From assembly GCA_965223415.1 (NCBI GenBank), contig OZ245002.1, positions 288,001 through 352,000 on the forward strand: 64,000 bases of DNA. Reading direction: 5' to 3'. The notes under the pieces were generated by a model. That model saw only the letters and a list, made by a program, of their open reading frames with translations. It was not told where the DNA came from and did not search any database. The stretch is from Myxococcota bacterium. Its GTDB lineage: Bacteria; Myxococcota_A; UBA9160; UBA6930. The position numbers and the translations under genes were made by a program. Every line of letters starts with the position of its first letter. Position 1 is the stretch's first letter. This document shows positions 8,524-64,000 of the stretch, in pieces.

Positions 8524-8705
8524 TTAGGCATCCGATCCGCGAGGGGACTCGCCGGTCTCGCCCCGGCGCGGGCTGAACCTCGCCATGGCGGCCAAGGCGA
8601 CCCCCGACAGAACGAACGGTGCGCCGACCAGGCCGAAGCCGAGGAAGCGGGCCACGCCGGAGGAGGACGGTCAGGACCACGAGAGCCAGCAGGAGGCCGG
8701 TCCCG
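8524..8705 (-). pseudogene. Possible frameshifted remnant of a membrane-protein C-terminus
   Basis: GLLLALVVLTVLL in one frame continues as GVARFLGFGLVGAPFVLSGVALAAM in another; no proper start. Confidence 0.2.
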
Positions 8706-9503
8706 TCAGGCGCCGGCACCCTCCGCCTGCGCCGTGTAGCGCGCCAGCAGCTCCGCCACCCCGGCTGGCAGCTCGATCCGGCCCGGGTCGTAACGAGGGC
8801 TCCAGGTGCGCAGGTAGTTCCGCCGCGCCGCCCGCGTCATCGGGGTGCGGGGCACGACGAGCTTCCGGCCCAGCGCCTGCGCCATGCACGACGCGAAGCG
8901 GTGGACGTAGCGCAGGTAGTGCCACTGGGCCCAGGTGCCGAAGACCACGCGATAGAGGTAGCTCCCCACCAGGTGCTCGAAGACGCCGAAGGCCACGGTG
9001 CGGTGCTCGATCTCCTCGGCCATGTGCCAGGACCACAGCTCTCCACCGGGCATCATGCCGCCGGAGAGGCTGCCGTGCTCCGCCATGGCCAGGGCGCCGG
9101 CGCAGGTCATGGCCTCGAAGCCCTCGGCGTAGGCGACGTTCCAGCGCAGGGGCTTCTCCTTCGTGAAGCGCTGGTAGTCGGCCTCGAGGGCGTTCTCGAT
9201 CGCGACGAGGCGTCCGGCCACGTCGGGAGCGAACCGGCCCCGCAGCTGCTCGTTGAAGATCGCGTGGTTGCGGTAGTGATGCCCCTCCTGCTGGGAGAAG
9301 CGCCGCGCGTCCTCCGCCAGCCCCGGATCGCGGATCTCCTTCAGGGCCACCTTCATGGTGCGGATCAGGTAGGGCTCCAGGTAGGGCATCGTCAGGGAGA
9401 GGCCCATGGCGCCCAGGACCACCGCGAGGTCCGCGTCCTCCATCTCGAAGTCGATGGGCGCGTCGAAGGGGAAGCGGATCTTGCGCACCGTGATGTCGGC
9501 CAT
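8706..9503 (-). CDS. Predicted metal-dependent hydrolase (ferritin-like, Metal_hydrol family)
   Basis: VRKIRF start, QEGHH, AEGFEAMT, WHMAEEIEHRTVAF. Confidence 0.85.
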   Translation of the reverse strand: MADITVRKIRFPFDAPIDFEMEDADLAVVLGAMGLSLTMPYLEPYLIRTMKVALKEIRDPGLAEDARRFSQQEGHHYRNHAIFNEQLRGRFAPDVAGRLVAIENALEADYQRFTKEKPLRWNVAYAEGFEAMTCAGALAMAEHGSLSGGMMPGGELWSWHMAEEIEHRTVAFGVFEHLVGSYLYRVVFGTWAQWHYLRYVHRFASCMAQALGRKLVVPRTPMTRAARRNYLRTWSPRYDPGRIELPAGVAELLARYTAQAEGAGA

Positions 9504-9569
9504 GTCCGGAAGGTAGCGTGGACAGATCCCGGTCCCCGCCCCACAATCCGGACCCACGAGGGGAGGCCC

Positions 9570-11174
9570 ATGGCCGACGAGACCGTCGACGTCCTGATCA
9601 TCGGTGCGGGAGCCGCGGGAGCCGCCGTGGCCTGGAGCCTGGCCGAGACGCGCATGCGCATCGTGTGCCTCGAGCAGGGCGACTGGATGAACCCGGCGGA
9701 CTATCCGACCACGCGCAACGGCTGGGAGATGGAGCGCTTCGGCGCCTTCGGCCTGTCGCCGAACACCCGGGGCCGGCGGGAGGACTACCCGGTCAACGAC
9801 GACGACTCCCCCATCAAGATCTCCAACTTCAACGCGGTCGGCGGCAGCACCATCCTCTACGCTGCCCACTTCCCGCGCCTGCACCCGTCGGACTTCCGGG
9901 TGCGCACCCTGGACGGCGTGGCCGATGACTGGCCGCTCGACTACGCCACCCTCGAGCCCTTCTACGACCTGAACGCCCGCATGATGGGTGTCGCCGGACT
10001 CACCGGCGACCCCGCCTACCCGCCCAAGGAGCCCACGCTTCCGCCGGTCCCCCTCGGCAAGCTCGGCGACACCCTGGGCCGGGGCTTCGAGAAGCTCGGC
10101 TGGCACTGGTGGCCCTCGGACAGTGCGGTCGCCACGGCCGAGCACGCGGGCCGGGCGCCCTGCGTGAACCTGGGCCCCTGCATCATGGGCTGCGCCCAGG
10201 GCGCGAAGGGCAGCACCGACGTCACCTACTGGCCGGTGGCAGTGCGCGAAGGGGTCGAGGTGCGCACCCGCTGCCGGGTGCGCGAGATCAGCGTGGACGA
10301 GAACGGCATGGCCCGGGGCGCGGTCTACGTCGACGCGGACGGCGTGGAGCACGAGCAGCGCGCCGAGATCGTGATCGTCGCCTGCAACGGCGTCGGCACG
10401 CCGCGGCTGCTGCTGAACTCGCGCTCGTCGCAGTTTCCGGACGGCCTCGCCAACCGCAGCGGCCTGGTCGGCAAGAACCTCATGTTTCACCCCTACGCCA
10501 TGGTGACGGGCATCTTCCCCGAGCACCTCGAGGGCTGGAAGGGCCCGACGGGCTGCAGCCTGATCAGCCAGGAGTTCTACGAGACCGATCCGGCCCGCGG
10601 CTTCGTGCGCGGCTACTCCTTCGAGATGCTGCGTGGCATGGGTCCGGTGTCGACGGCGCTCTTCGGCATGTCCGGCGGGCTCGTGCCCTGGGGCGCCGGC
10701 CACCACGAGGCCTTCGACCGGCTCTGGGACAAGACCGCCGGCATGGTCGTGATCTGCGAGGACCTGCCCGAGGAGCACAACACGGTGACCCTCGACCCGG
10801 AGCGCGTCGACAGCGACGGCATTCCGGCGCCGAAGATCACCTACCGGCTCAGCGAGAACAGCCAGCGCATGCTGGATCACGCCGTCGCCCGGGGCACCGA
10901 GGTCCTCGAGGCGGCGGGCGCCTTGGACACGATCTCGGAGGCGCCGCTTCCGCCGGCGGGCTGGCACCTGATGGGCACCGCGCGCATGGGCACCGACCCG
11001 GAGCGCTCGGTGGTGAACCCCTGGGGCCGCAGCCACGACGTGAAGAACCTGTTCATCGTGGACGGCTCGGTGTTCGTCACCTCCGGCGGCGTGAACCCGA
11101 CGAACACGATCCAGGCCCTGGCCCTGTACGTGGCCGACACGATCAAGAAGAACCTGACGAACCTCTTCGACTGA
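9570..11174 (+). CDS. GMC-family flavoprotein oxidoreductase
   Basis: IIGAGAAG FAD motif, VGGSTI, HLMGTARMG, NPTNTIQALA; GGAGG RBS. Confidence 0.92.
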   Translation: MADETVDVLIIGAGAAGAAVAWSLAETRMRIVCLEQGDWMNPADYPTTRNGWEMERFGAFGLSPNTRGRREDYPVNDDDSPIKISNFNAVGGSTILYAAHFPRLHPSDFRVRTLDGVADDWPLDYATLEPFYDLNARMMGVAGLTGDPAYPPKEPTLPPVPLGKLGDTLGRGFEKLGWHWWPSDSAVATAEHAGRAPCVNLGPCIMGCAQGAKGSTDVTYWPVAVREGVEVRTRCRVREISVDENGMARGAVYVDADGVEHEQRAEIVIVACNGVGTPRLLLNSRSSQFPDGLANRSGLVGKNLMFHPYAMVTGIFPEHLEGWKGPTGCSLISQEFYETDPARGFVRGYSFEMLRGMGPVSTALFGMSGGLVPWGAGHHEAFDRLWDKTAGMVVICEDLPEEHNTVTLDPERVDSDGIPAPKITYRLSENSQRMLDHAVARGTEVLEAAGALDTISEAPLPPAGWHLMGTARMGTDPERSVVNPWGRSHDVKNLFIVDGSVFVTSGGVNPTNTIQALALYVADTIKKNLTNLFD

Positions 11175-11189
11175 CGGGAGCGCCCCATC

Positions 11190-11621
11190 GTGAGCGACGA
11201 GACCCGCATCCTGGCCAGCGTGCTCGACGCGCTGATCCCCGCCTCGCACACGATGCCCTGCGCGAGCGCCCTGGGCCTCGAAGAGACGGTGCGCGAACGC
11301 CTGGGCGAGGAATGGGCGGCCCTCCTTCCCGGGCTCGAGGCCTGCGAGGTGGCGGCGCGGGCGCGGGGCGCCGAGGGCTTCGTCGCCCTCGCGCAGGAAG
11401 ACGCGGCCGCTGCCCTCGAAGAGGTCGCGGCGAACCATCCAGCGTTCCTCGGCGGCCTCGTCTTCCAGGCCTACACGACCTACTACGAGCATCCGCGGGT
11501 CGTGGAAGCCCTCGGCCTCGAAGCCCGGCCGCCCTGGCCGGGCGGCTACCCGCTCGAGACGGGCGATCTCGACCGGCTCGCCCGGGTGCGCGAAGGCCCC
11601 CGCCGCTATCGGGAGTGCTAG
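11190..11621 (+). CDS. Gluconate 2-dehydrogenase subunit 3-like small partner
   Basis: LDALIP start, YYEHPRVVEALG..P.P.GY; directly downstream of the GMC gene. Confidence 0.7.
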   Translation: MSDETRILASVLDALIPASHTMPCASALGLEETVRERLGEEWAALLPGLEACEVAARARGAEGFVALAQEDAAAALEEVAANHPAFLGGLVFQAYTTYYEHPRVVEALGLEARPPWPGGYPLETGDLDRLARVREGPRRYREC

Positions 11622-56252: not shown

Positions 56253-57773
56253 CTAGCCCATGCTTCGAATCGGCTGGAACCCAACCAGGGCGTCGCGATC
56301 TCCGCCGCTGCCGAGCCCGTGGCCCGGCAACACCTGATCGAATCGGCCCAGGTCGTCGTGGAGCGCCATGTAGTTCAGCACCACCGCCTCGGCCAGCAGG
56401 TCGACGTTGCTCGCGACGCGGGTCGCGCTCGTCTCGACCGAGCCGTTCGGGCGGTAGTAGCCGATCTGCTGGCGAGTCGGATCGGTGATCTGCGGGCGCC
56501 CGTTCGGGTCGTACACGAGCATGAACGTGGAGGCGGTCGACGAGTTGTCACCCCGCCAGCCGAACTTGCCGCGGCCGTCGCCGGAGTTGTCGATCTCGCC
56601 GTCGCCGTCCACGCTCCCGTCGCTGAACACGTAGAGCACCAGCGGCTGGGCGCGTCGGGCCGCGTACTCGAGCATCGCGCCCATCTGGACGCCGGCCTCG
56701 AAGTCGCGCACCTCGCCGGTGGCCCGGGTGCCGTCGTGGTAGTCGTAGCCTCCCGACTCGATCGTGGCGCAGCCGGCGAAGCCGTTCACCGTCAGCTTCA
56801 TGGCCGCAGCGGCCTTCCGGTTCTTCGAGGAGTTCAGCTCGTTATCGGTGAAGATGCTGTTGCCGGCACCCACGATGTCCACGTCCTGGGTCGGATCGAG
56901 GAGGTTCGGGTCTCCGTAGCGGCTCACCAGATCGGCGCTCTGGGTGTAGGCGCAGGAGATCAGGTCCTTCACCACCTGGTCCTCGGTCATCGTCTGCACG
57001 CGAAGGTTCGAGAGGCTCTCGATCGTGCCCATCACCGAAGCCGCGGCCTCCTCGTCGAGCAGGTCGACGAGCTTACCGGTGTCGACCAGGCCGCGGGCGT
57101 CGTCCTCGTCGGAGACCTTCGTCGGCCGCTTCGCCGGGTCGTACATCGACATCGGAGACTGGGAGCGGCCCCCGGAGTCGGAGCTCCGGGAGCCGATGAG
57201 GGTAACGAGGTCGCCGTCGGCTCCGGCCTTGTTGATGCCGAACATTGGATTGTGGGGATTGTTCCCCGTGTCGTTGTCCGAGCGCGCTGCGAAGACGACG
57301 CCGTTGACGTTGGCCCGGGTGGCCGCGGAGGTCTTCGACTGGATGCCGCGCAGGAACGGACTGTCCACGTGGAACAGCAGGCCGAGCTCGTTGTTCACCT
57401 GGGCCGGATCCGTCGGAAACATGCTCGAGGGAAGCCCCTGCTTCTCGTAGCCCTCCGGATCGAGGGGATCGAGCTGGCCGCCGGGCCCGCCAACGATCAC
57501 GTTCGAGCCGCTGGTGTTGGCGCCACCGCCCAGGTCCATGGTGATGAACGGGATCAGCCCGGCGCCGCCGGCGGCGATTCCGCACTCCGCCGCCGCCTGG
57601 GCAGCGGCCGGGCCGCTGCCCAGCAGGCCCAGCAGGCTCGGCGCCGCCGCGAAGGCGGCCCCGGCGATCAGACCCTGGCCGAGGAAGTCCCGGCGGGTCA
57701 CCAGCTTGTGGTCCGGCGGCCGCTGCAGCTCTCGGGCGCTCGTCTCGCCCCGGCGTGCCGTGGATTCGCTCAT
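56253..57773 (-). CDS. Tat-exported protein of unknown function (DUF1501/DUF1552-like)
   Basis: VTRRDFLGQG twin-arginine signal + hydrophobic core + AAA; DLGGGAN, GGYDYH, FSDGS motifs. Confidence 0.75.
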   Translation of the reverse strand: MSESTARRGETSARELQRPPDHKLVTRRDFLGQGLIAGAAFAAAPSLLGLLGSGPAAAQAAAECGIAAGGAGLIPFITMDLGGGANTSGSNVIVGGPGGQLDPLDPEGYEKQGLPSSMFPTDPAQVNNELGLLFHVDSPFLRGIQSKTSAATRANVNGVVFAARSDNDTGNNPHNPMFGINKAGADGDLVTLIGSRSSDSGGRSQSPMSMYDPAKRPTKVSDEDDARGLVDTGKLVDLLDEEAAASVMGTIESLSNLRVQTMTEDQVVKDLISCAYTQSADLVSRYGDPNLLDPTQDVDIVGAGNSIFTDNELNSSKNRKAAAAMKLTVNGFAGCATIESGGYDYHDGTRATGEVRDFEAGVQMGAMLEYAARRAQPLVLYVFSDGSVDGDGEIDNSGDGRGKFGWRGDNSSTASTFMLVYDPNGRPQITDPTRQQIGYYRPNGSVETSATRVASNVDLLAEAVVLNYMALHDDLGRFDQVLPGHGLGSGGDRDALVGFQPIRSMG

Positions 57774-57819
57774 GTTCCCATCTCCCGTCCCCTCGAGGTT
57801 TCGCTTCGGTTCTCCGTGC

Positions 57820-60800
57820 CTAGTGGAAGAGCACCGGTCCGCTGCTGATCACCGCCGTACAGGCCGCCTTGACCACGCTCTGGGTGTGCTCCCGGTCGCA
57901 GGCAGCCGGGCTCGTGCACTCCGTCGTCAGGTCGTCGATGAGCTGCACCAGGTGGGGTCGCGTCTGTGCGGTGTCCGGCTGGTCGGCCAGCCCGGTGCCG
58001 TAGAAGCGCTCCACCAGCCGATCCGCGATCAGCTGCTTGGCGCTCGGGTCCTGGAAGGCCGTGAACGTGTCGGCGCCGAACCTGAACCCGGTGCCGAACA
58101 GGTTCTCCCGGAGCGTCCTGCTCTCGACCATCCGGTCGCAGTATTCGATGCCCAGCTTGAAGGCACCGACCTGGTGCGCCGACACGAAGCCGCGGAGATC
58201 GTTGCTCCCCGGCAGCTGCTGGGTGAGGCCCTCGAAGGTGCGCTCCACGCTGCCGGTGTCCTTCGGAACGCCCGTCAGCACCGACATGGTGTCGTTGATC
58301 TGGTCGAAGTTCCGCAGGCCCGTCTCCGGACTCACCTCGGTCGTGAAGCCGCCGGGCACCACCGGTGCGTCGTTGTCGATCACGACGTCGGTGTTGTCCC
58401 CGAGGACCTCGAAGGCGATCGAGAAGACGTCGTTCGCCGGACCCTGATCCTTCGCGATCACCGAACCCAGGCTCGAGAGCGCCTGCGGCGACTGGCTCGC
58501 GACCGTGTCGATGGAGCGGAACGCCTGTCCCGCCACCGGCACCTGGCCGTTCACCATGATGCGGAGGTTCCGGATCGCGATCCCCGCACCCGTCGGGCCC
58601 ACGTAGGTGGGATGGCTGAACAGGTAGCTGAAGGGATCGTAGTCGCTGACCGTCATCTCGATCACACTGCCGGCCTGGCCCGTCCACTGGGAGACGTCGA
58701 AGCGCAGCAGGAACCGCTCCTCGAAGCCTGCCAGGGCGTGGCTCAGGATCTCCGCCGGCGTGAGGGCCCGCTCGTGGATGGCGGCGAAGTACACCTTGCC
58801 CTTCCACAGGCGGTTGTTCGTGAGCTCGTTGCCGATCGCGAACCGGTAGCTCGGGTTCCAGTTGTCGAGCGTGCCGCCGCCGTTGCGGTCGACATCGTCG
58901 GTCCACACGCCGTTCACGTAGACCCGGCGACCGTTGGTCTGGTCGAAGGTCATCACGACGTGCTGGAGCTCGGTCGCGAGATCCCGATCGTCGTCGTCCG
59001 TGTAGAGCGTCGGCGTACCATTACTGCTGATGCCCGATGCCCGGCTGCGGTTGCGCGCCGCGTACTGGTAGTTCTGCTGCCCGAGCATGAAGTTCCGGTT
59101 GTAGGGATCCACCGAGTAGGTGAGGATCCGCGCCGGACCTCGCTGGTCGATCTTCTCGGGGAAGACCCACGCTTCGATCGAGTACTCCTGGGTCCCGGTC
59201 GTCGGGTCTGCCAGCTCGTCGTAGAGCTTGCGGCTCAGCATCTGGCTGGCAACCGCCCGCCCGCTCTTGATCTCGATGCCGCCACCACCGAGCCAGTCGA
59301 CACCAGCCAGGCTGAGGTCGAGGGCGGGCATCACGCCACTGGTGTCGCGGGCGATGTTGCCGGTGCCTTCCTTGAACTCCCAGCGCGCGATCACCGCGTC
59401 GTCGTAGCGGAGGTTGCCGCCCCCCTCGACGCCGTCGGCCATCGTCTGCTGGCCGCTGGTGACGCTCTGCTGTCCGCCGCCGTTGCCGGTGTTGCCCACC
59501 AGCACGGCCCACATGGCGATGGCCGCCCGCATGGTCTCGGCGTCGTCGGCACAGTCACCCCAGCAGAAGTGGCCGTCTGCCAGGCGCTGGACCAGCCGCG
59601 AGGCATAGGGCTGGGTGAGGTTCACCTTCTGGGTGAGGTAGGTCGCGCGATAGGCGCTGGTCGGGTCCGGATGGGCGATGTCCGGCCGCCCGATCCCCGT
59701 GCTGCCGTCGTGGCAGCTCGCGCAGTACTGCGTGTTGAGGGGGTGCACGGTCTGGCTGAAGGCGTCGATCATGGCCTGCTCGACCGGATCCACACCACCC
59801 CCGGAGCCGCCGCCGGTGTTCCCACCACCCGTGTTGCCGCCGCCGGCGTTCCCACCGCCCGTGTTGCCGCTGCCGGAGCCGCTGCCGGAACCGGAGCCGC
59901 CTCCGGTTCCGCCGTTGCCGCCCACGGCTCCGCCGTTGCCACCGCTGGCCGTCGGGCCCGGGGGCGGGAAGCTCACCGGGTCCGGGCAGAGCTGTCGCAT
60001 GCCGCGCTTGCCCTTGCGCTTCCTCTGCACCGGGATCGGGTCCGAGAACTGGTTGGCCGCCGCGAGGCGCACGAAGCAGGGAACCGCCGCCGGCCGGATG
60101 TCGGTCCAGCTGAAGCGGCCCGAGGCGTCGGCGGTCACGGTCTGCAGCAGGGCGTCCGTTTCGGCGTCGCGGATCTCGACGTCCTGATTGGCGAGCGCAT
60201 GGTCGCCGACGACCATCAGGTCGTGGCGCTTTCGCTTCATCCGCTTGAGCACCGCCGAGCCCTGCAGGAGGGTCGGACTGCCGTTGCCGCACTGGAGCAC
60301 CGAATTGGTCACCGGGGTGCGCAGGCCGAGGTTGGCTCCGCTCCGCACCTGCACCTCACAGGGTGCCTGGATCGGCAGGAGGCACTCGCGAATGACCCGG
60401 CGCCGCTTCTTCCCGCGGCGTCGCTTGATCGTGCGGCACTGGCCGGTCGTGAAGGTGCCGTCTGCGGCCGCGATGACGGTGCCGACCACGAGCCCCGTGT
60501 CGGCGTCGATGATCTCGACGGTCGAGCCCGCCGAGGCACCGGCTCCGGTCACGACGAGTTGGCCCTTCCAGGTGTCCCACCAGGTCGCGTCGGAGATCCC
60601 GAAGCCGCTGGCAACTCCCTGGATCGCGATCTTCACGGTCTCCTGGTCCGACATCGCCGGGATGCCGTCGTCGGTGACGGTGAAGGTGACGACCACGCTG
60701 CCCGTGTTCGTGGCACCCGGCGTCCAGCTGAACATCGAGGTGCCGTCACCGTTGTCGGTGAAGCTCGCGCCCGCCGGAACGCCGGAGGCCGTGAAGCCGA

Positions 60801-62934
60801 GGCCGTTGCCGTCCACGTCCGTGGCCAATACCGAGAAGCTCAGGGTCTGACCGGGCAAGACCGTGCGGTCGCCGACCATCACGATCGTGGGCGCGTTGTT
60901 CACCAGACCGACGGCGACGGTCACCGTCTCCGAGGCGGTCTGGACGGGGCTGCCGGCATCGGTGGCCGTGATGGTCATCGTGTGACTTCCGACGTCCGCC
61001 GCACCCGGGGTCCAGCTGAAGTTGCCCGTGCCGTCCCCATTGTCCACGAAGCTCGAGCCAGCCGGGGCGCCGCTCACCGCGCAGGAGACGGCGTCGCCGT
61101 CGGGATCGGTGGCGCTCACCTGGAAGGCGACCAGCTGGTTCGTGTTGGCCGCGTGATTGCCGATCGGAGCCACCGTCGGCGGGCGGTTCACGTCGCCCAC
61201 CGTGATCGTCAGGGTCTCCTGATCCTGGGCGACGGGAGCGCCGTCGTCGGTGGCCGAGATCGTGATGGCGTAGTTCCCGGCCTCGCCGAAGCCCGGGGTC
61301 CAGGCCAGGGTGCCGGTGCCGTCGCCGTTGTCCTGGAGCGCGGCGCCCAGCGGGGCGTTGGCGAGCTGGAGGACGAGCCCGTTTCCGTCCGGATCGGTGG
61401 CGCTCACCGCGAACTGCAGGAGCTCGCCCTCGTTCACCGAACGGTCTCCGATGGCCGCGAGCACCGGCGGACGGTTGACGTCGCCCACGGTGATCGTGAT
61501 GGATTCGGTGGCGTTCAGGACCGGCGTTCCGCCGTCCATCGCGGTGAAGCTCACCACGTGGTTGCCGCTCTGGGCGAAACCCGGCGTCCAGGCGAAGCTT
61601 CCGGTGCCGTTGCCCGCGTCCGTGAAGGTCGCGCCCTGGGGCAGCCCGGAGGCCTGGAGCGTCAGCGCGTCGCCGTCCGGATCGCTCGCCATCACGGTGA
61701 GCTGGAGGGCGACGCCCTCGTTCACCGTCTGGTTGCCGATCGGCGTGAGGAGCGGCGCCCGATTCACGTCGCCCACCGAGATCGTGATGGTCTCGGAAGC
61801 GGTGGCCGGCGGTGCGCCGTCGTCGGTGGCGCTGAAGGTCACGTCGAAGTTGCCCGTCTGGCCGAAGCCCGGCGTCCAGCTGAAGCTGGCGGTGCCGTCG
61901 CCGTTGTCGGCGAAGGCGGCGCCGGAAGCCAGATTCGCAGCAGCGAGGCTCAGGCCGTCGCCGTCCGGATCGCTCGCCGAGATGGTCAGGGCCAGCGTGT
62001 CGCCTTCGTTCACGCCCTGGTTGCCGATGGGCACGAGCGCCGGCGGGCGGTTCACGTCGCCCACGGTGATCGTGATCGACTCCGCGTCCGAAAGCGGGGG
62101 AGTGCCGTTGTCCGCGGCAGTGAAGTTGACGGAGAAGCTGCCGGCCTGGTCGAAGGCGGGCGTCCACGAGAAGGCCGCAGTGCCGTTGCCGGCATCGTTG
62201 AAGCTGGCGCCCGTCGGGAGGTTGCCGGCGGTCAGCGTGAGCGGGTCACCGTCCGGGTCGCTGGCAGAGAGGGTGAGGGAGAGCGTGCCGCCCTCGTTCA
62301 CGCTCTGGTTGCCGATCGGAGCCAGGACCGGTGCCTGGTTCGCGTTGAAGATCGTGATCGACACGGTCTCCATGGCGGTGCCGGAGCCATCGCTCACACT
62401 GAAGGTGACGCTGTAGATGTTCGCTTGTCCCACGGCGGGGGTCCAGGCGAAGGAGCCCGTGCCGTCGCCGTTGTCGGTGAAGCTCGCGCCGCTCGGAAGC
62501 GGCGTGGCGGTGAGACTGAGGGTGTCGCCGGCATCCGGATCCGTCGCCGTGACCGTGAAGGCCAGGGCCTGGCCCTCGGTGCCCATCTTGGCGCCGATGG
62601 CGGCCAGCACCGGCGGCTGGTTGGCGGCGGGACAGAAGAAGCCGTAGTTGCCCGCATCCCAGGCTGCGGATTCGGCGGCTCGCGCGTTGCCGGAGTTCGG
62701 CAGCACGGCGGGGAAGCTGCTGTCGTGGCACAGGGTGCACTCGACGAAGAACACGGCGGGGTCGATGAGGTCCGCGTACGGGGTGCCGCGGCCCTGACCG
62801 GAGCAGAAGGCGTCCACGGTGGGGCCGAAATCGGAGGAAGCCTGCGCGCCGTCGGCAGTGCCGAAGGACAAGGCCAGGGCCAGGCCCAGCAGGGCCGTGC
62901 CGATGCGGCGGCGGAGGAAGGGGAAGCGCGTCAT
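57820..62934 (-). CDS. Large secreted protein: CxxCH, 7 Ig/cadherin-like repeats, CxxCH cytochrome domain, LamG, C-terminal domain
   Basis: Signal peptide; CTLCH 62725-62739; CASCH 59710-59724; LamG motifs YSIEAW, HVVMTF, VYVNG, IGNE, HERALT; GAGGT RBS. Confidence 0.85.
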   Translation of the reverse strand: MTRFPFLRRRIGTALLGLALALSFGTADGAQASSDFGPTVDAFCSGQGRGTPYADLIDPAVFFVECTLCHDSSFPAVLPNSGNARAAESAAWDAGNYGFFCPAANQPPVLAAIGAKMGTEGQALAFTVTATDPDAGDTLSLTATPLPSGASFTDNGDGTGSFAWTPAVGQANIYSVTFSVSDGSGTAMETVSITIFNANQAPVLAPIGNQSVNEGGTLSLTLSASDPDGDPLTLTAGNLPTGASFNDAGNGTAAFSWTPAFDQAGSFSVNFTAADNGTPPLSDAESITITVGDVNRPPALVPIGNQGVNEGDTLALTISASDPDGDGLSLAAANLASGAAFADNGDGTASFSWTPGFGQTGNFDVTFSATDDGAPPATASETITISVGDVNRAPLLTPIGNQTVNEGVALQLTVMASDPDGDALTLQASGLPQGATFTDAGNGTGSFAWTPGFAQSGNHVVSFTAMDGGTPVLNATESITITVGDVNRPPVLAAIGDRSVNEGELLQFAVSATDPDGNGLVLQLANAPLGAALQDNGDGTGTLAWTPGFGEAGNYAITISATDDGAPVAQDQETLTITVGDVNRPPTVAPIGNHAANTNQLVAFQVSATDPDGDAVSCAVSGAPAGSSFVDNGDGTGNFSWTPGAADVGSHTMTITATDAGSPVQTASETVTVAVGLVNNAPTIVMVGDRTVLPGQTLSFSVLATDVDGNGLGFTASGVPAGASFTDNGDGTSMFSWTPGATNTGSVVVTFTVTDDGIPAMSDQETVKIAIQGVASGFGISDATWWDTWKGQLVVTGAGASAGSTVEIIDADTGLVVGTVIAAADGTFTTGQCRTIKRRRGKKRRRVIRECLLPIQAPCEVQVRSGANLGLRTPVTNSVLQCGNGSPTLLQGSAVLKRMKRKRHDLMVVGDHALANQDVEIRDAETDALLQTVTADASGRFSWTDIRPAAVPCFVRLAAANQFSDPIPVQRKRKGKRGMRQLCPDPVSFPPPGPTASGGNGGAVGGNGGTGGGSGSGSGSGSGNTGGGNAGGGNTGGGNTGGGSGGGVDPVEQAMIDAFSQTVHPLNTQYCASCHDGSTGIGRPDIAHPDPTSAYRATYLTQKVNLTQPYASRLVQRLADGHFCWGDCADDAETMRAAIAMWAVLVGNTGNGGGQQSVTSGQQTMADGVEGGGNLRYDDAVIARWEFKEGTGNIARDTSGVMPALDLSLAGVDWLGGGGIEIKSGRAVASQMLSRKLYDELADPTTGTQEYSIEAWVFPEKIDQRGPARILTYSVDPYNRNFMLGQQNYQYAARNRSRASGISSNGTPTLYTDDDDRDLATELQHVVMTFDQTNGRRVYVNGVWTDDVDRNGGGTLDNWNPSYRFAIGNELTNNRLWKGKVYFAAIHERALTPAEILSHALAGFEERFLLRFDVSQWTGQAGSVIEMTVSDYDPFSYLFSHPTYVGPTGAGIAIRNLRIMVNGQVPVAGQAFRSIDTVASQSPQALSSLGSVIAKDQGPANDVFSIAFEVLGDNTDVVIDNDAPVVPGGFTTEVSPETGLRNFDQINDTMSVLTGVPKDTGSVERTFEGLTQQLPGSNDLRGFVSAHQVGAFKLGIEYCDRMVESRTLRENLFGTGFRFGADTFTAFQDPSAKQLIADRLVERFYGTGLADQPDTAQTRPHLVQLIDDLTTECTSPAACDREHTQSVVKAACTAVISSGPVLFH
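60613..62622 (-). repeat. Seven ~96-aa Ig-like (He_PIG/cadherin-like) repeats
   Basis: Each unit: N..P....IG....EG..L......DPDG..L......P.GA.F.DNGDGT..F.WTP......TD.G......E...I.V. Confidence 0.9.
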
Positions 62935-62995
62935 GTGGGACCTCGTGTGGTCGAGGGTTCGCGTCGGAGGCTTGCAGCGGGCTCGGCTGGGTCGA

Positions 62996-64000
62996 TCAAT
63001 CACCCATGCACCAGGTGGCGACCTCGGCGAAAACGCGCCTCATGCTGCGACCGCCCGTCTCGAAGACGTCGGCGATGCGCTCCACCTCGTCCCGATCCTC
63101 TTGCGAGCTCACGGGACGGAGGCAGAGTTGGCTGAAGACCTTCTCCACCTGGCAGACGGCGAACTGCCGACTGCCGGCCAGCTCCTGGCCGAGACTCTTG
63201 GGTCCCCTCCCCTCTCCCGTACCGGCTCCCCATCCGACCGCGGCGTTCGGTCCGTGACGCCAGTAGTTCGTCCAGCTGTCGTCCGGCGTGACGTAGCCGA
63301 ACGGGAAGCTGCTGGCGTTGACGAAGTACTTGGCCTGCACCTCGCCCGGCGTGTAGACGACCCGCCCCGCGTCGGCGTCCCACTCGAAGTAGGCGAATGC
63401 CTGGGCGAGCGGATCCATGCCGGTGTGACAGCCGGAGCAGTTGTTCAGGAAGACAGAGCTGTCGCCGCCGGGCGAGCGCGAGATGTCCTGGCGGATGCGG
63501 TCCGTCGGACGGGTCGTGTCCTTCAGGCCCTCGAGATCCGTGCACAGGAAGTTCATCGCAGCGAAGCGGAGCATTCGTCGGTTGGTGCCGGCCCGGAAGA
63601 AGGCCTCGCCGGCGGCGCGGGTGGTCATCACGCCGGCGGTCGCCGAGCTCGGCAGCTGGGAGCCGGGAAGGCCTGACTGGGACACCGCCATCAGCACGCC
63701 GGGATTCGACAGGTCGGCGCCGGAACCCTCGAGGGCTTCGTAGTGGCGGTTGTCGTCGTGGGCGTAGGGAACCTCGACGACGCCAGGGGACCCGATGTAG
63801 ACCATGTCCGCGGAGAGCACCCGGTCGAAGGGCACCTCGTCCCGGATCATCCCGATCGCCGTGGCGGAGTAGTCGTTGAGCGGCGCGAAGACCGTCTGCG
63901 CCTCGTTCGTCCAGGGCGTGACGAAGTTCTTCAGCGTCGAGGAGTAGAAGAGCGGATTCTCCATCGCGCGATAGGCGGCCTGTGCGGGCTGGCCCGCCTG
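62996..64000 (-). CDS. Mono-heme CxxCH protein (DUF1585/1588-like), 5' end outside window
   Basis: CSGCH 63425-63439; AGVMTTRA, GTNRR, MDPL; frame open to the window edge. Confidence 0.75.
   Translation of the reverse strand, partial: QAGQPAQAAYRAMENPLFYSSTLKNFVTPWTNEAQTVFAPLNDYSATAIGMIRDEVPFDRVLSADMVYIGSPGVVEVPYAHDDNRHYEALEGSGADLSNPGVLMAVSQSGLPGSQLPSSATAGVMTTRAAGEAFFRAGTNRRMLRFAAMNFLCTDLEGLKDTTRPTDRIRQDISRSPGGDSSVFLNNCSGCHTGMDPLAQAFAYFEWDADAGRVVYTPGEVQAKYFVNASSFPFGYVTPDDSWTNYWRHGPNAAVGWGAGTGEGRGPKSLGQELAGSRQFAVCQVEKVFSQLCLRPVSSQEDRDEVERIADVFETGGRSMRRVFAEVATWCMGD

What the first reader, a model, noticed from the sequence alone, without database searches (positions are those of the whole stretch)
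56253..64000. Uncharacterised exported heme / Ig-stalk / LamG / Tat three-gene system
Seen: three co-directional genes with 61-nt and 46-nt gaps. They encode a CSGCH protein, a 1,704-aa Sec-signal protein with two CxxCH motifs and a LamG domain, and a 506-aa twin-arginine protein. Known: CxxCH is the c-type heme attachment motif, and Tat exports folded, often cofactor-loaded proteins. Cytochrome-domain plus Tat DUF1501/DUF1552 pairs recur in Planctomycetota and Myxococcota without an established function. From memory, and unverified here, similar Tat proteins are often mis-annotated as GspF, and similar trios lie near TlpA/DUF4266/DUF3570/ApbE genes. Inference: an envelope or surface redox complex coupling a glycan- or Ca-binding LamG module to hemes and a Tat-delivered metallo-enzyme. 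This is the best candidate for an undescribed system in the window.
Basis: partly seen in the sequence, partly recalled or inferred. Interest (0 to 1): 0.8.

Follow-up and report, generated by a model that had tools for sequence, protein, structure and literature searches.

The report
Haem, lectin and Tat-enzyme envelope operon
Three neighbouring genes for two haem-type exported proteins and a twin-arginine-exported phosphatase-fold enzyme are a widespread, unstudied envelope module, and this genome carries a rare version with a long Ig stalk and an 11-haem cytochrome where relatives have a flavin module.

Summary
On the minus strand lie a 400-aa CSGCH protein (cut by the window end), a 1,704-aa protein (two CxxCH, seven Ig repeats, LamG) and a 506-aa TRRDFL protein, with gaps of 61 and 46 nt. 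The trio is not chance: the same order was found in all 71 other loci with enough flank, out of 589 species-level hits. CxxCH is kept in every full-length homologue.

The first protein is a remote homologue of the PSD4-PSCyt3-PSD2 part of planctomycete-type DUF1592 proteins (hhalign 92.9%). The Tat protein has an alkaline-phosphatase-superfamily fold and is collinear with DUF1501, but matches no Pfam or NCBIfam model.

Eleven of 13 sampled genomes of the same class, and most gammaproteobacterial loci, have a TlpA/DUF4266/DUF3570/ApbE flavin module next to the trio. This genome lacks that module. It has an 11-haem cytochrome and an Ig-stalk fusion instead, a state shared with one distant lineage.

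Best reading: a periplasmic or surface haem-coupled metalloenzyme module, a new three-gene variant of the PSCyt + DUF1501/DUF1552 pairs. Substrate and chemistry are unknown. This scan had already noted the trio eight times on other DNA. I found no description in print.

The parts
56253..57773 (-). Gene for the 506-aa twin-arginine-exported protein (P0001). It has an alkaline-phosphatase-superfamily fold and belongs to an unnamed family remotely collinear with DUF1501.
   Evidence: Translation. No Pfam or NCBIfam match even at E<=10. At least 6,931 homologues. AF2 model pLDDT 67, pTM 0.73. All 50 top VIA rows are alkaline-phosphatase superfamily, Z 8.3-10.9. hhalign against DUF1501-type proteins gives E 6.8e-4.
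57681..57698 (-). Codons of the twin-arginine motif TRRDFL (residues 26-31).
   Evidence: An RR-x-hydrophobic-hydrophobic motif is present in 79 of 79 full-length homologues in the fetched loci.
57820..62934 (-). Gene for the 1,704-aa exported protein (P0006): an N-terminal haem/Ig-stalk module fused to the conserved cytochrome-LamG-helical core.
62623..62841 (-). Small N-terminal domain with CTLCH (residues 66-70, codons 62725-62739). It belongs to the fused module.
   Evidence: Two stand-alone paralogues elsewhere in the genome keep EC(K/T)(L/M)CHN. This domain is absent from 79 of the 80 fetched loci.
60565..62622 (-). Seven tandem Ig-like repeats (Big_9 / He_PIG / tandem-95), forming the 'stalk'.
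   Evidence: Pfam Big_9 E 1.4e-53 with 7 stretches; NCBIfam tand_rpt_95 scores 164 bits against a cut-off of 90.
60010..60564 (-). Two small beta-rich segments separated by K/R-rich runs (KRRR, KKRRR, KRKR, RKRK). A Gly-rich linker follows at 59836-60009.
   Evidence: Read from the sequence. A paralogous segment lies at G000:C1:4175522-4176118.
59485..59835 (-). Helical cytochrome-c-like domain of the conserved core, with CASCH (residues 1071-1075, codons 59710-59724) and a downstream H-x-C-W motif.
   Evidence: CxxCH...HxC is present in 70 of 70 homologues of at least 640 aa and invariant in alignment A3. Cytochrome_CBB3 is hit by 19 of 26 members. The AF2 model is helical over model residues 33-130.
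58720..59412 (-). LamG / concanavalin-like lectin domain.
   Evidence: Laminin_G_3 E 1.2e-15, 58.4 bits against a cut-off of 27.6; matched by 24 of 26 family members. Best structural match is the arabinan-binding domain 4 of AbnA: Z 20.2, rmsd 2.7, 190 residues aligned.
58390..58719 (-). Second beta-sandwich domain of the core.
   Evidence: AF2 model, strands at model residues 392-493. No family assigned.
57823..58347 (-). C-terminal helical domain of the core, containing the conserved motif LRxFxxINxTMSxLTGV...QQLP.
   Evidence: Alignment A3. AF2 model is helical over model residues 525-689. Likeness to PSD3 and PSCyt2 regions is only weak, hhalign P 0.007-0.05.
62996..64000 (-). The 3' 1,005 nt of the gene for the 400-aa CSGCH protein (P0004, called 'P4' here). 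The gene starts at 64198, beyond the window. CSGCH codons are at 63425-63439.
   Evidence: hhalign against DUF1592-type proteins gives probability 92.9%, E 3.7e-7. PSD2 is hit by 24 of 30 members and PSCyt3 by 9 of 30. CxxCH is present in 68 of 68 homologues.

Best explanation
The finding is the core of a four-gene minus-strand operon. In order it encodes an 11-haem c7-type cytochrome (just outside the window), a one-haem protein (P4), a haem-LamG protein and a Tat-exported enzyme.

The last three genes are a strictly conserved, unnamed trio. It is a three-gene branch of the 'planctomycete-type cytochrome (PSCyt/PSD) + Tat-exported DUF1501/DUF1552' gene pairs. P4 corresponds to the PSD4-PSCyt3-PSD2 part of DUF1592-type proteins. 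The Tat protein is a divergent alkaline-phosphatase-fold protein collinear with DUF1501.

Proposed working (inferred, not shown):
- The Tat protein is folded, and probably metal-loaded, in the cytoplasm and then exported.
- In the periplasm it acts with the two Sec-exported proteins, which receive c-type haem.
- The LamG lectin domain holds a carbohydrate-like substrate.
- The haems carry electrons between the catalytic site or substrate and an envelope electron conduit.

In most lineages that conduit is the neighbouring TlpA / DUF4266 / flavinylated DUF3570 / ApbE module. In this genus that module is gone. An 11-haem cytochrome, together with a divergent TPR + probable outer-membrane-barrel protein, sits in its place, and the LamG protein has been fused to a roughly 1,000-residue haem/Ig/polybasic stalk. 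This suggests the catalytic end is held away from the cell or on a polyanionic surface.

Shown here: gene anatomy, conservation, motif conservation, folds, remote homologies, and the module swap. Inferred: haem loading, complex formation, redox role, substrate.
For: Conservation
- Among the 80 loci kept plus this one, the Tat gene is in 81 of 81, the LamG protein in 80 of 81 and P4 in 72 of 81. The nine loci without P4 all end less than 1.8 kb upstream of the Tat gene, so the order P4 -> LamG protein -> Tat holds in 71 of 71 other loci with room.
- The trio is single-copy in this genome.

Motifs
- CxxCH is present in 68 of 68 P4 homologues and 70 of 70 LamG-protein homologues; 57 of the latter have two CxxCH and 13 have one.
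- An RR motif is present in 79 of 79 Tat homologues.

Kinship
- P4 profile against 12 PSD3-bearing DUF1592-type proteins: probability 92.9%, E 3.7e-7, 286 columns, P4 residues 38-395 aligned to 223-545 of 560.
- PSD2 is hit by 24 of 30 P4-family members and PSCyt3 by 9 of 30.
- The P4 profile also hits the CxxCH proteins encoded beside DUF1501-type genes.
- Tat protein: all 50 top VIA rows are alkaline-phosphatase superfamily, Z 8.3-10.9. The nearest named ESM-Atlas cluster is DUF1501. hhalign gives E 6.8e-4 and aligns GGYDYH with GGWD(T/L)H, and a permissive alignment is collinear from end to end.
- LamG domain: Z 20.2 to a carbohydrate-binding module.

Redox wiring
- Of 50 loci with full flanks, TlpA is present in 46, DUF3570 in 42 and a two-CxxCH HZS-alpha/PD40 protein in 39.
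- In 13 other genomes of the same class, TlpA is beside the trio in 12 and DUF3570 + ApbE in 11; none has the multihaem cytochrome.
- The DUF3570 copies carry two [ST]GA[ST] motifs in 7 of 8 correctly called ORFs, and DUF4266 ends in CGCN. These match the flavinylation sites and CXC motif described by Meheust et al. 2021 (PMC8238504, passages read).
- This genome has no DUF3570 or DUF4266. It has the 11-CxxCH cytochrome upstream instead.
- The same derived layout, including a 44%-identical homologue of the divergent 955-aa TPR protein, recurs in locus L004, whose Tat protein is only 64% identical.
Against: - No experiment or expression data bear on this; no RNA run is listed.
- Known members of the alkaline-phosphatase fold are hydrolases, transferases or mutases, not redox enzymes, so a need for electrons is not explained.
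- The Tat protein matches neither DUF1501 nor DUF1552 in Pfam, even at E<=10. The profile link to DUF1501 is weak (probability 27%).
- Foldseek against the PDB gave no match at E<=0.001 for the Tat model, and that model is only of moderate confidence (pLDDT 67).
- Three full-flank loci (L007, L023, L030) have neither the flavin module nor a cytochrome beside the trio, so the trio does not always sit next to a conduit.
- The 229-nt gap between the cytochrome gene and P4 leaves co-transcription open, and the promoter/terminator scans found nothing either way.
- The module swap is seen in two lineages only and could reflect a single transfer.
- The C-terminal helical domain of the LamG protein has no significant relative.
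Confidence: 0.55

Rival explanations
1. A non-redox nutrient-acquisition hydrolase. The Tat protein would be a sulfatase- or phosphatase-like hydrolase that removes ester groups from a glycan held by the LamG module. P4 and the LamG protein would be accessory binding or sensing subunits whose haem, if present, is structural or regulatory. The neighbouring flavin or haem genes would serve another purpose.
For: All structural matches of the Tat model are hydrolases or transferases of phosphate or sulfate esters. The LamG domain is closest to carbohydrate-binding modules of glycosidases and sialidases. He et al. 2017 (PMC5615132, passages read) note PSCyt genes beside sulfatase genes and carrying CBMs such as Laminin_G_3. 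Three loci have the trio without any redox neighbour.
Against: Three haem-attachment motifs are invariant across all homologues. The redox module is adjacent in 46 of 50 full-flank loci and 12 of 13 class genomes. Where it is missing it is replaced by a multihaem cytochrome. No C/S-x-P-x-R sulfatase motif is visible after the first strand (read; the motif itself is recalled, not tested).
Confidence: 0.2
2. An envelope-polymer modifying transferase. The Tat protein would work like the phosphoethanolamine, glycerophosphate or similar transferases of the same fold (EptA/MCR-1, LtaS, BcsG) and decorate an exopolysaccharide or outer-membrane glycan bound by LamG. The haem proteins would be scaffolds.
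For: MCR-1, EptA, EptC, LtaS/LtaP and BcsG catalytic domains score as high as the sulfatases (Z 8.9-10.4). The Ig stalk and polybasic runs suit binding to a surface polymer.
Against: Those transferases are membrane-anchored by N-terminal transmembrane domains and use lipid donors (recalled). The Tat protein is a soluble exported protein with only a signal peptide (read by eye). This reading gives no role to the conserved haems or the redox neighbours.
Confidence: 0.08
3. A Sox-like carrier pathway. A small substrate would be bound covalently to the C-terminal Cys arm of DUF4266, much as on SoxY; the haem proteins would make the bond oxidatively and the Tat hydrolase would release the product. 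The thioredoxin-like TlpA would reset the carrier.
For: DUF4266 ends in GGGCGCN on a Gly-rich arm. A thioredoxin-like protein and haem proteins are adjacent in most loci. Several hosts are sulfur oxidisers by the names of their records (Thiodiazotropha, Sedimenticola, Thiohalomonadales, Chromatiales). The likeness to SoxY, SoxAX, SoxB and SoxW is recalled, not tested.
Against: This genome and locus L004 keep the trio but have no DUF4266 or TlpA beside it, and this genome has no DUF4266 at all. Many hosts are ordinary marine heterotrophs. No sequence relation to Sox proteins was seen in any scan.
Confidence: 0.07

Closest known systems
PSD3-PSD5-PSD4-PSCyt3-PSD2 proteins (DUF1587/1595/1592/1588/1585) paired with Tat-exported DUF1552 (HXXSHH), of Planctomycetota, Verrucomicrobiota and Myxococcota. 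Function unknown (He et al. 2017, PMC5615132).
   Same: A CxxCH protein is encoded next to a Tat-signal protein. P4 aligns with the C-terminal 60% of such proteins (hhalign 92.9%, E 3.7e-7) and ends in a PSD2-like segment. Carbohydrate-binding modules such as Laminin_G_3 occur in PSCyt proteins.
   Different: There are three genes, not two. P4 lacks the PSD3/PSD5 N-terminal part. The LamG/haem protein is a separate polypeptide whose C-terminal domain is only weakly PSD3-like (P about 0.02). The partner does not match HXXSHH. No member reaches Pfam's gathering scores for PSCyt3, and this genome's own P4 scores 19.6 bits against 25.8 for PSD2.
DUF1501 (PF07394) Tat-signal proteins paired with PSCyt1-PSCyt2-(LamG)-PSD1 proteins, or with DUF1800 or short CxxCH proteins.
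   Same: A Tat signal and a length of roughly 420-520 aa. The alignment is collinear: the Gly-rich loop after the first strand, GGYDYH against GGWD(T/L)H, and SDG against EFGR. DUF1501 is the nearest named ESM-Atlas cluster. In sampled genomes of this phylum, DUF1501-type genes sit beside genes for proteins with a P4-like CxxCH segment.
   Different: P0001 gives no Pfam match to DUF1501 at E<=10. The profile-profile probability is only 27%. The D-H-H-type motif of the DUF1501-type sequences aligns with K-F-G-W in this family. The family is far more conserved than that distance suggests: 58-88% identity across the 25 sequences of alignment A1.
ApbE-associated thioredoxin-like / DUF4266 / DUF3570 flavinylation clusters (Meheust et al. 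2021, eLife, PMC8238504).
   Same: This is the regular neighbour of the trio in relatives, with two [ST]GA[ST] sites and the CXC tail as described. [quoted passage not shown]
   Different: It is a neighbour, not the trio itself, and it is absent from this genome. In the passages read, the paper does not mention the trio. Its supplementary cluster tables were not opened and may list these genes without names.
GspF (type II secretion platform protein), the name some databases give the Tat protein.
   Same: Nothing beyond the database label.
   Different: No match to any Pfam model, T2SSF included, at E<=10. The protein is Tat-exported, soluble and of alkaline-phosphatase fold. The name is a mis-annotation.

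Membership tests
Alkaline-phosphatase superfamily (fold level) | Core alpha/beta fold shared by alkaline phosphatases, sulfatases, NPPs, iPGM and phosphoethanolamine transferases | tested here: met
   All 50 listed VIA rows are members: Z 8.3-10.9, 182-253 residues aligned, spanning model residues about 65-504. The weaker Foldseek rows are mostly of the same superfamily, but none reaches E<=0.001. Model pLDDT 67, pTM 0.73.
Alkaline-phosphatase superfamily (fold level) | Metal-binding Asp after strand 1, plus Asp/His pairs and a nucleophile | tested here: inconclusive
   Invariant D80, S90, N91, H135, D137, H174, D344, H346, D385 and H472 in alignment A1 are candidates. No residue-level structural superposition was available.
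DUF1501 (PF07394) | Match to the Pfam model above 27 bits | tested here: not met
   0 families for P0001 at E<=10. No PF07394 match anywhere in this genome.
DUF1501 (PF07394) | Remote homology by profile comparison | tested here: inconclusive
   hhalign of A1 against 10 DUF1501-type ORFs: probability 26.8%, E 6.8e-4, 141 columns; collinear when run permissively. ESM-Atlas score 0.92 to a cluster in which 45% of members carry DUF1501.
DUF1501 / DUF1552 partners | Twin-arginine signal peptide | tested here: met
   TRRDFL in P0001; an RR motif in 79 of 79 homologues.
DUF1552 (HXXSHH, PF07586) | Match to the Pfam model | tested here: not met
   No match for P0001 and none in this genome (the named control genomes did not ring either).
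DUF1592-type PSCyt3/PSD proteins | PSCyt3 (DUF1588) CxxCH module followed by PSD2 (DUF1585) | tested here: inconclusive
   Pfam: this genome's P4 gives PSD2 E 7.7e-4 (19.6 bits, below the 25.8 cut-off) and PSCyt3 E 0.21. Family-wide, PSD2 is hit by 24 of 30 (best 1.4e-6) and PSCyt3 by 9 of 30 (best 0.011). Profile-profile comparison is significant: 92.9%, E 3.7e-7.
DUF1592-type PSCyt3/PSD proteins | PSD3 (DUF1587) and PSD5 (DUF1595) N-terminal domains on the same polypeptide | tested here: not met
   The P4 alignment starts at position 223 of the 560-aa reference. PSD5 is hit by 1 of 30 at E 0.093 and PSD3 by none. No PSD3 match in this genome. The LamG protein's C-terminal motif is only weakly PSD3-like, P 0.02-0.05.
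c-type cytochromes | Conserved CxxCH haem-attachment motif on a Sec-exported protein | tested here: met
   68 of 68 P4 homologues and 70 of 70 LamG-protein homologues. Invariant C254/C257/H258 in A2 and C56/C59/H60 in A3.
c-type cytochromes | Covalently bound haem | not testable with these tools
   Needs haem staining or mass spectrometry of the expressed proteins.
Laminin_G_3 / concanavalin-like lectin domains | Match to PF13385 and a ConA-like beta-sandwich | tested here: met
   58.4 bits against a cut-off of 27.6; 24 of 26 members; Z 20.2 to AbnA domain 4 and Z 16.8-17.3 to CBM40 domains.
Multihaem cytochrome c7/c3 type (the upstream gene) | Repeated CxxCH with Cytochrome_C7 matches | tested here: met
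   11 CxxCH in 290 aa; Cytochrome_C7 61.3 bits against a cut-off of 24.8, with 5 stretches.
Thioredoxin-like/DUF4266/DUF3570/ApbE flavinylation system | DUF3570 and DUF4266 genes present beside the trio | tested here: not met
   This genome: no PF12094 match (the controls did not ring) and no tblastn hit with same-class DUF3570 or DUF4266 queries at E<=1e-3. It is met in relatives: 11 of 13 class loci and 42 of 50 full-flank loci.
GspF (T2SS platform) | T2SSF domain | tested here: not met
   No Pfam family at all at E<=10.

The most novel reading that the evidence does not exclude
The trio is a new class of extracytoplasmic redox enzyme. An alkaline-phosphatase-fold metalloprotein, fed by c-haems on two partner proteins, would perform oxidative or reductive chemistry on a lectin-bound, possibly polymeric or insoluble, substrate. 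Its electron supply would be modular: a flavinylated outer-membrane barrel in most bacteria, and a multihaem cytochrome with its own barrel in this genus. Here the catalytic end has also been mounted on a roughly 1,000-residue Ig/polybasic stalk, which would make it a terminal enzyme of extracellular electron transfer.
Probability: 0.2. Interest if true: 0.85.

Novelty: new variant of a known kind. Interest (0 to 1): 0.58.

Why it matters
The PSCyt + DUF1501/DUF1552 gene pairs number dozens per genome in planctomycetes and verrucomicrobia, and no function has been assigned to them since they were first described (He et al. [quoted passage not shown]

The trio studied here is a single-copy, highly conserved relative. 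It is present in at least 589 species, including culturable Marinobacter, Alteromonas and Paraglaciecola, so it offers a tractable entry point to that whole group.

This genome adds a natural experiment. The flavin/thiol module that accompanies the trio in its closest relatives has been exchanged for an 11-haem cytochrome. That is hard to explain unless the trio needs an electron conduit. It yields a direct, testable prediction about an enzyme fold not known for redox chemistry.

Tried and rejected
- Complex prediction on P4 + Tat protein (collected): no verdict, score 0.00. This says nothing about binding.
- The look-up of sequencing runs: no RNA holder listed.
- Promoter/terminator scans: nothing found on either strand, which is uninformative at 70% GC.
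- 10-mer search for a shared regulatory motif upstream of P4 in 60 loci: no word in more than 8 loci. Dropped.
- Foldseek against the PDB for the Tat model: no match at E<=0.001.
- Foldseek and VIA on the 689-residue core model: the rows are filled by the LamG domain. The matches include the lectin-like sub-domains of clostridial neurotoxin binding regions, which is a generic ConA-like fold likeness and not a toxin relation. The cytochrome, second beta and helical domains are therefore effectively untested for fold.
- ESM Atlas on residues 1406-1704: no usable hit.
- PDB sequence searches with A1, A2 and A3: nothing for the Tat protein or P4; only marginal sialidase-CBM hits for LamG.
- hhalign of the LamG-protein C-terminal domain against PSD3, and against two PSCyt2/PSD1 proteins: P 0.007-0.05, not significant. 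The first attempt at this used a target alignment polluted with unrelated ORFs and is void.
- hhalign of the C-terminal half of the divergent 955-aa TPR protein against DUF3570: P 0.22, no likeness.
- Glt/Tol-like motor neighbours reported by earlier scan notes: no motor-type family appeared among the 62 neighbouring proteins scanned here.
- Chance ORFs in a GC-rich genome: rejected on third-position GC and on conservation.
- 'GspF' identity: rejected.

Full report
OBSERVATION

The window is G000:C1:288001-352000, part of a single 5.83-Mb contig of about 70% GC. On the minus strand lie three co-directional genes.
- 62996-64198 encodes a 400-aa protein, called P4 here. Only its 3' 1,005 nt lie in the window; the rest was read from the genome.
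- 57820-62934 encodes 1,704 aa from the ATG.
- 56253-57773 encodes 506 aa.

Third-position GC of 0.92 and a clean frame switch near 64200 mark these as the coding frames among the many spurious ORFs of a GC-rich genome. P4 has one CSGCH. The large protein has CTLCH at residues 66-70 and CASCH at 1071-1075. The third protein has TRRDFL at residues 26-31.

A 290-aa cytochrome with 11 CxxCH motifs (Cytochrome_C7, 61 bits) sits 229 nt upstream on the same strand, at window-equivalent 64428-65300. The next gene downstream is convergent and carries an LPG_synthase_TM domain. The unit is therefore probably four genes.

WHAT THE PROTEINS ARE

The Tat protein matches no Pfam or NCBIfam model, even at E<=10. 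Yet it belongs to a very large and highly conserved family.
- 6,931 of the 8,000 scored candidates have E<=1e-3. The 120 listed are 59-88% identical, and none carries a Pfam domain. A few are labelled 'general secretion pathway protein GspF'.
- An AlphaFold model built on 25 sequences has pLDDT 67 and pTM 0.73. Foldseek finds no PDB match at E<=0.001.
- The Foldseek-independent VIA search returns 50 rows that are all alkaline-phosphatase superfamily: sulfatases, alkaline phosphatases, NPPs, iPGM, MCR-1/EptA, LtaS and BcsG. Scores are Z 8.3-10.9 with 182-253 residues aligned.
- The nearest named ESM-Atlas cluster is DUF1501.
- A profile comparison with ten DUF1501-type ORFs from the same phylum gives E 6.8e-4 at 27% probability. 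It aligns GGYDYH with GGWD(T/L)H, and run permissively it is collinear from the Tat signal to the C-terminus.

I read the Tat protein as an alkaline-phosphatase-fold protein that is a remote cousin of DUF1501. It is not a member by Pfam's definition. The GspF label is a mis-annotation.

P4 shows only sub-threshold Pfam matches: PSD2 at E 7.7e-4 and PSCyt3 at E 0.21. Across 30 family members, 24 hit PSD2 and 9 hit PSCyt3. The P4 profile aligns with twelve PSD3-bearing DUF1592-type proteins at 92.9% probability and E 3.7e-7. The alignment covers P4 residues 38-395 against positions 223-545 of 560. P4 is thus homologous to the PSD4-PSCyt3-PSD2 part of those proteins and lacks their N-terminal PSD3/PSD5 part. 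The same CxxCH segment is found in the proteins encoded next to DUF1501-type genes of this phylum. A profile search of 1.84 billion representatives finds 1,640 relatives at E<=1e-3 and 792 at E<=1e-30, so this is a distinct family of moderate size.

The large protein is a fusion.

Residues 1 to about 1010 hold a signal peptide, a small CTLCH domain, seven tandem-95/Big_9 Ig repeats and two small beta segments separated by K/R-rich runs. The same genome encodes two stand-alone paralogues of this module, which keep the CxxCH and end in polybasic tails.

Residues from about 1020 to 1704 are the conserved core. An AlphaFold model of this core (pLDDT 79.7) shows four parts: a helical cytochrome-like domain with CASCH, a LamG sandwich, a second beta-sandwich and a helical C-terminal domain. 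The LamG domain is closest to carbohydrate-binding modules, at Z 20.2 to the arabinan-binding domain of AbnA and Z about 17 to CBM40. The C-terminal domain carries a conserved motif that aligns with the PSD3 signature only at P 0.02-0.05, which is inconclusive.

In most other lineages the homologue is an 650-860-aa lipoprotein with two CxxCH domains and no stalk.

IS THE TRIO A SYSTEM?

The best 80 loci were kept. Counting this locus as well, the Tat gene is in 81 of 81, the LamG protein in 80 of 81 and P4 in 72 of 81. The nine loci without P4 end less than 1.8 kb upstream of the Tat gene. The order P4 -> LamG protein -> Tat therefore holds in 71 of 71 other loci with room.

CxxCH is present in 68 of 68 P4 homologues and 70 of 70 LamG-protein homologues. 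The RR motif is present in 79 of 79 Tat homologues.

Hosts, by record title, are mostly Gammaproteobacteria (Alteromonas, Marinobacter, Paraglaciecola, Steroidobacteraceae, Thiodiazotropha and others), plus Myxococcota/'Deltaproteobacteria' MAGs. In a sample of 201 genomes of this genome's phylum, 15 have the Tat family. All 15 are in this genome's class: 14 of 37 other class genomes and 0 of 163 from other classes. Each has one copy.

THE NEIGHBOURHOOD AND THE SWAP

In gammaproteobacterial loci a divergent operon lies upstream of P4. It encodes a 940-aa HZS-alpha/PD40 protein with two CxxCH motifs, two outer-membrane-barrel proteins, a TlpA-like thioredoxin, DUF4266 and DUF3570. ApbE often lies downstream. 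Among the 50 loci with full flanks, TlpA is present in 46, DUF3570 in 42, the HZS-like gene in 39 and ApbE in 23.

This is the flavinylation cluster of Meheust et al. 2021 (PMC8238504, passages read). They showed that DUF3570 is flavinylated by ApbE at two [S/T]GA[S/T] sites and that DUF4266 has a CXC tail, and they left the function unknown. Both features are present here.

I then fetched the Tat-family loci of 13 other genomes of this genome's class.
- Twelve of 13 have TlpA beside the trio.
- Eleven of 13 have DUF3570 and ApbE, including three genomes of the same family.
- None has the multihaem cytochrome.
- Only the same-genus genome, whose contig ends inside the repeats, has the Ig stalk.

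This genome has no DUF3570 or DUF4266 at all. The genus is therefore in a derived state: the flavin/thiol module has been lost, and the 11-haem cytochrome and the stalk fusion have been gained.

The same derived layout occurs in locus L004, where the Tat protein is only 64% identical. L004 also has a 44%-identical homologue of the divergent 955-aa TPR protein. The C-terminal half of that protein ends like an outer-membrane barrel, an observation made by eye.

Three other full-flank loci have the trio alone.

MECHANISM

Shown: three exported proteins that are always encoded together; three invariant haem-attachment motifs; a Tat-exported alkaline-phosphatase-fold protein; a lectin-type domain; and a neighbouring electron-transfer module that here has been exchanged for a multihaem cytochrome.

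Inferred: the Tat protein is loaded with metal in the cytoplasm. It acts in the periplasm with the two haem proteins on a LamG-bound substrate. Electrons pass between the haems and the flavin or multihaem conduit.

The exchange of one kind of electron carrier for another is the best argument that the trio's chemistry involves electrons. Against this, the fold is known only for hydrolases, transferases and mutases, three loci lack any adjacent conduit, and there are no experimental or expression data. A complex prediction gave no verdict, and no RNA runs are listed.

Rival readings are given separately: a plain glycan ester hydrolase, an envelope-polymer transferase and a Sox-like carrier pathway.

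COMPARISON WITH WHAT IS KNOWN, AND NOVELTY

The closest known kinds are the PSCyt/PSD + DUF1552 and PSCyt/PSD + DUF1501 gene pairs. He et al. 2017 (PMC5615132, passages read) describe their domain groups, their carbohydrate-binding modules (including Laminin_G_3) and their two neighbouring unknown gene families, and state that nothing is known of their function.

The trio differs in four ways:
- It has three genes.
- Its haem part is split over two proteins.
- Its Tat partner is outside both Pfam families.
- It is linked to the DUF3570 module.

Full-text searches found no paper describing it. The searches were DUF3570/DUF4266, DUF1501/1552/1588/1592/1585, DUF1553/DUF1549/PSCyt and DUF3570 + LamG + twin-arginine + cytochrome. 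The original description of the PSCyt/PSD domains in Rhodopirellula is recalled, not seen. Haft's preprint (10.1101/2023.06.07.544157, section 14 read) only mentions the DUF4266/DUF3570/TlpA neighbourhood in another context.

Earlier notes of this scan record the same trio eight times on other genomes, with the same general reading. I had reached my reading before seeing them, and I re-derived each point here. What is new in this window is the stalk fusion and the flavin-to-multihaem swap.

VERDICT

The finding is real and non-random, and it is still uncharacterised in print. It is a new three-gene variant of a known but enigmatic kind, present here in an unusual derived form. Interest is moderate to high (0.58). 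Confidence in the anatomy and kinship is high. Confidence in the redox mechanism is modest.

Noticed in passing
G000:C1:1955045-1957150 (-) and G000:C1:4175489-4178725 (-), outside the window: Two stand-alone paralogues of the N-terminal module of the large protein: signal peptide, small EC(K/T)(L/M)CHN domain, tandem-95 Ig repeats, small beta domains and a strongly K/R-rich tail. This is a small family of haem-tagged, polybasic Ig-repeat proteins of unknown role.
   Followed up: partly
window-equivalent 65228-68095 (+) = L001:3228-6095: A divergently transcribed 955-aa protein with a TPR region and a C-terminal half that ends like an outer-membrane barrel (...GVRYDY). A 44%-identical homologue sits in the same position in locus L004, so it probably belongs to the cytochrome-type variant of the system. 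It has no detectable likeness to DUF3570 (hhalign P 0.22).
   Followed up: partly
window-equivalent 69414-73126 = L001:7414-11126: A 687-aa protein with Sel1 and many ankyrin repeats lies next to a second multihaem cytochrome (545 aa; Cytochrome_C7, c3 and CIII matches). That cytochrome is 28% identical to the 11-haem one.
   Followed up: no
L029:7932-9926 and L033:7939-9870 (Chromatiales and gammaproteobacterial MAGs): In these two loci the middle protein lacks the LamG domain. It carries a different segment with another CxxCH (TRCQGCHG) in its place, while keeping the first cytochrome domain and the C-terminal helical domain.
   Followed up: no
L026:6416-7681: In this locus the P4 homologue aligns only at its ends and reads as unrelated sequence in the middle of alignment A2. 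This suggests frameshifts or a decaying gene.
   Followed up: no
G108:C54:81383-82882, G193:C3:2525817-2527316, G088:C550:7103-8596: The six-frame matches of the Tat family in three class genomes each include one in-frame stop (TGA or TAG). I did not check whether it lies upstream of the true start or inside the gene.
   Followed up: no
window 59836-60009 and 60010-60564 (-): Four K/R runs (KRRR, KKRRR, KRKR, RKRK) and a long Gly/Ser/Asn-rich linker separate the stalk from the catalytic core. This is unusual for an exported bacterial protein and suggests binding to a polyanion.
   Followed up: no
window 8619-11621 (+): An 851-aa GMC-type oxidoreductase is followed by a gluconate 2-dehydrogenase subunit-3-like protein. 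Together they form a second, unrelated exported or membrane dehydrogenase pair in the window.
   Followed up: no
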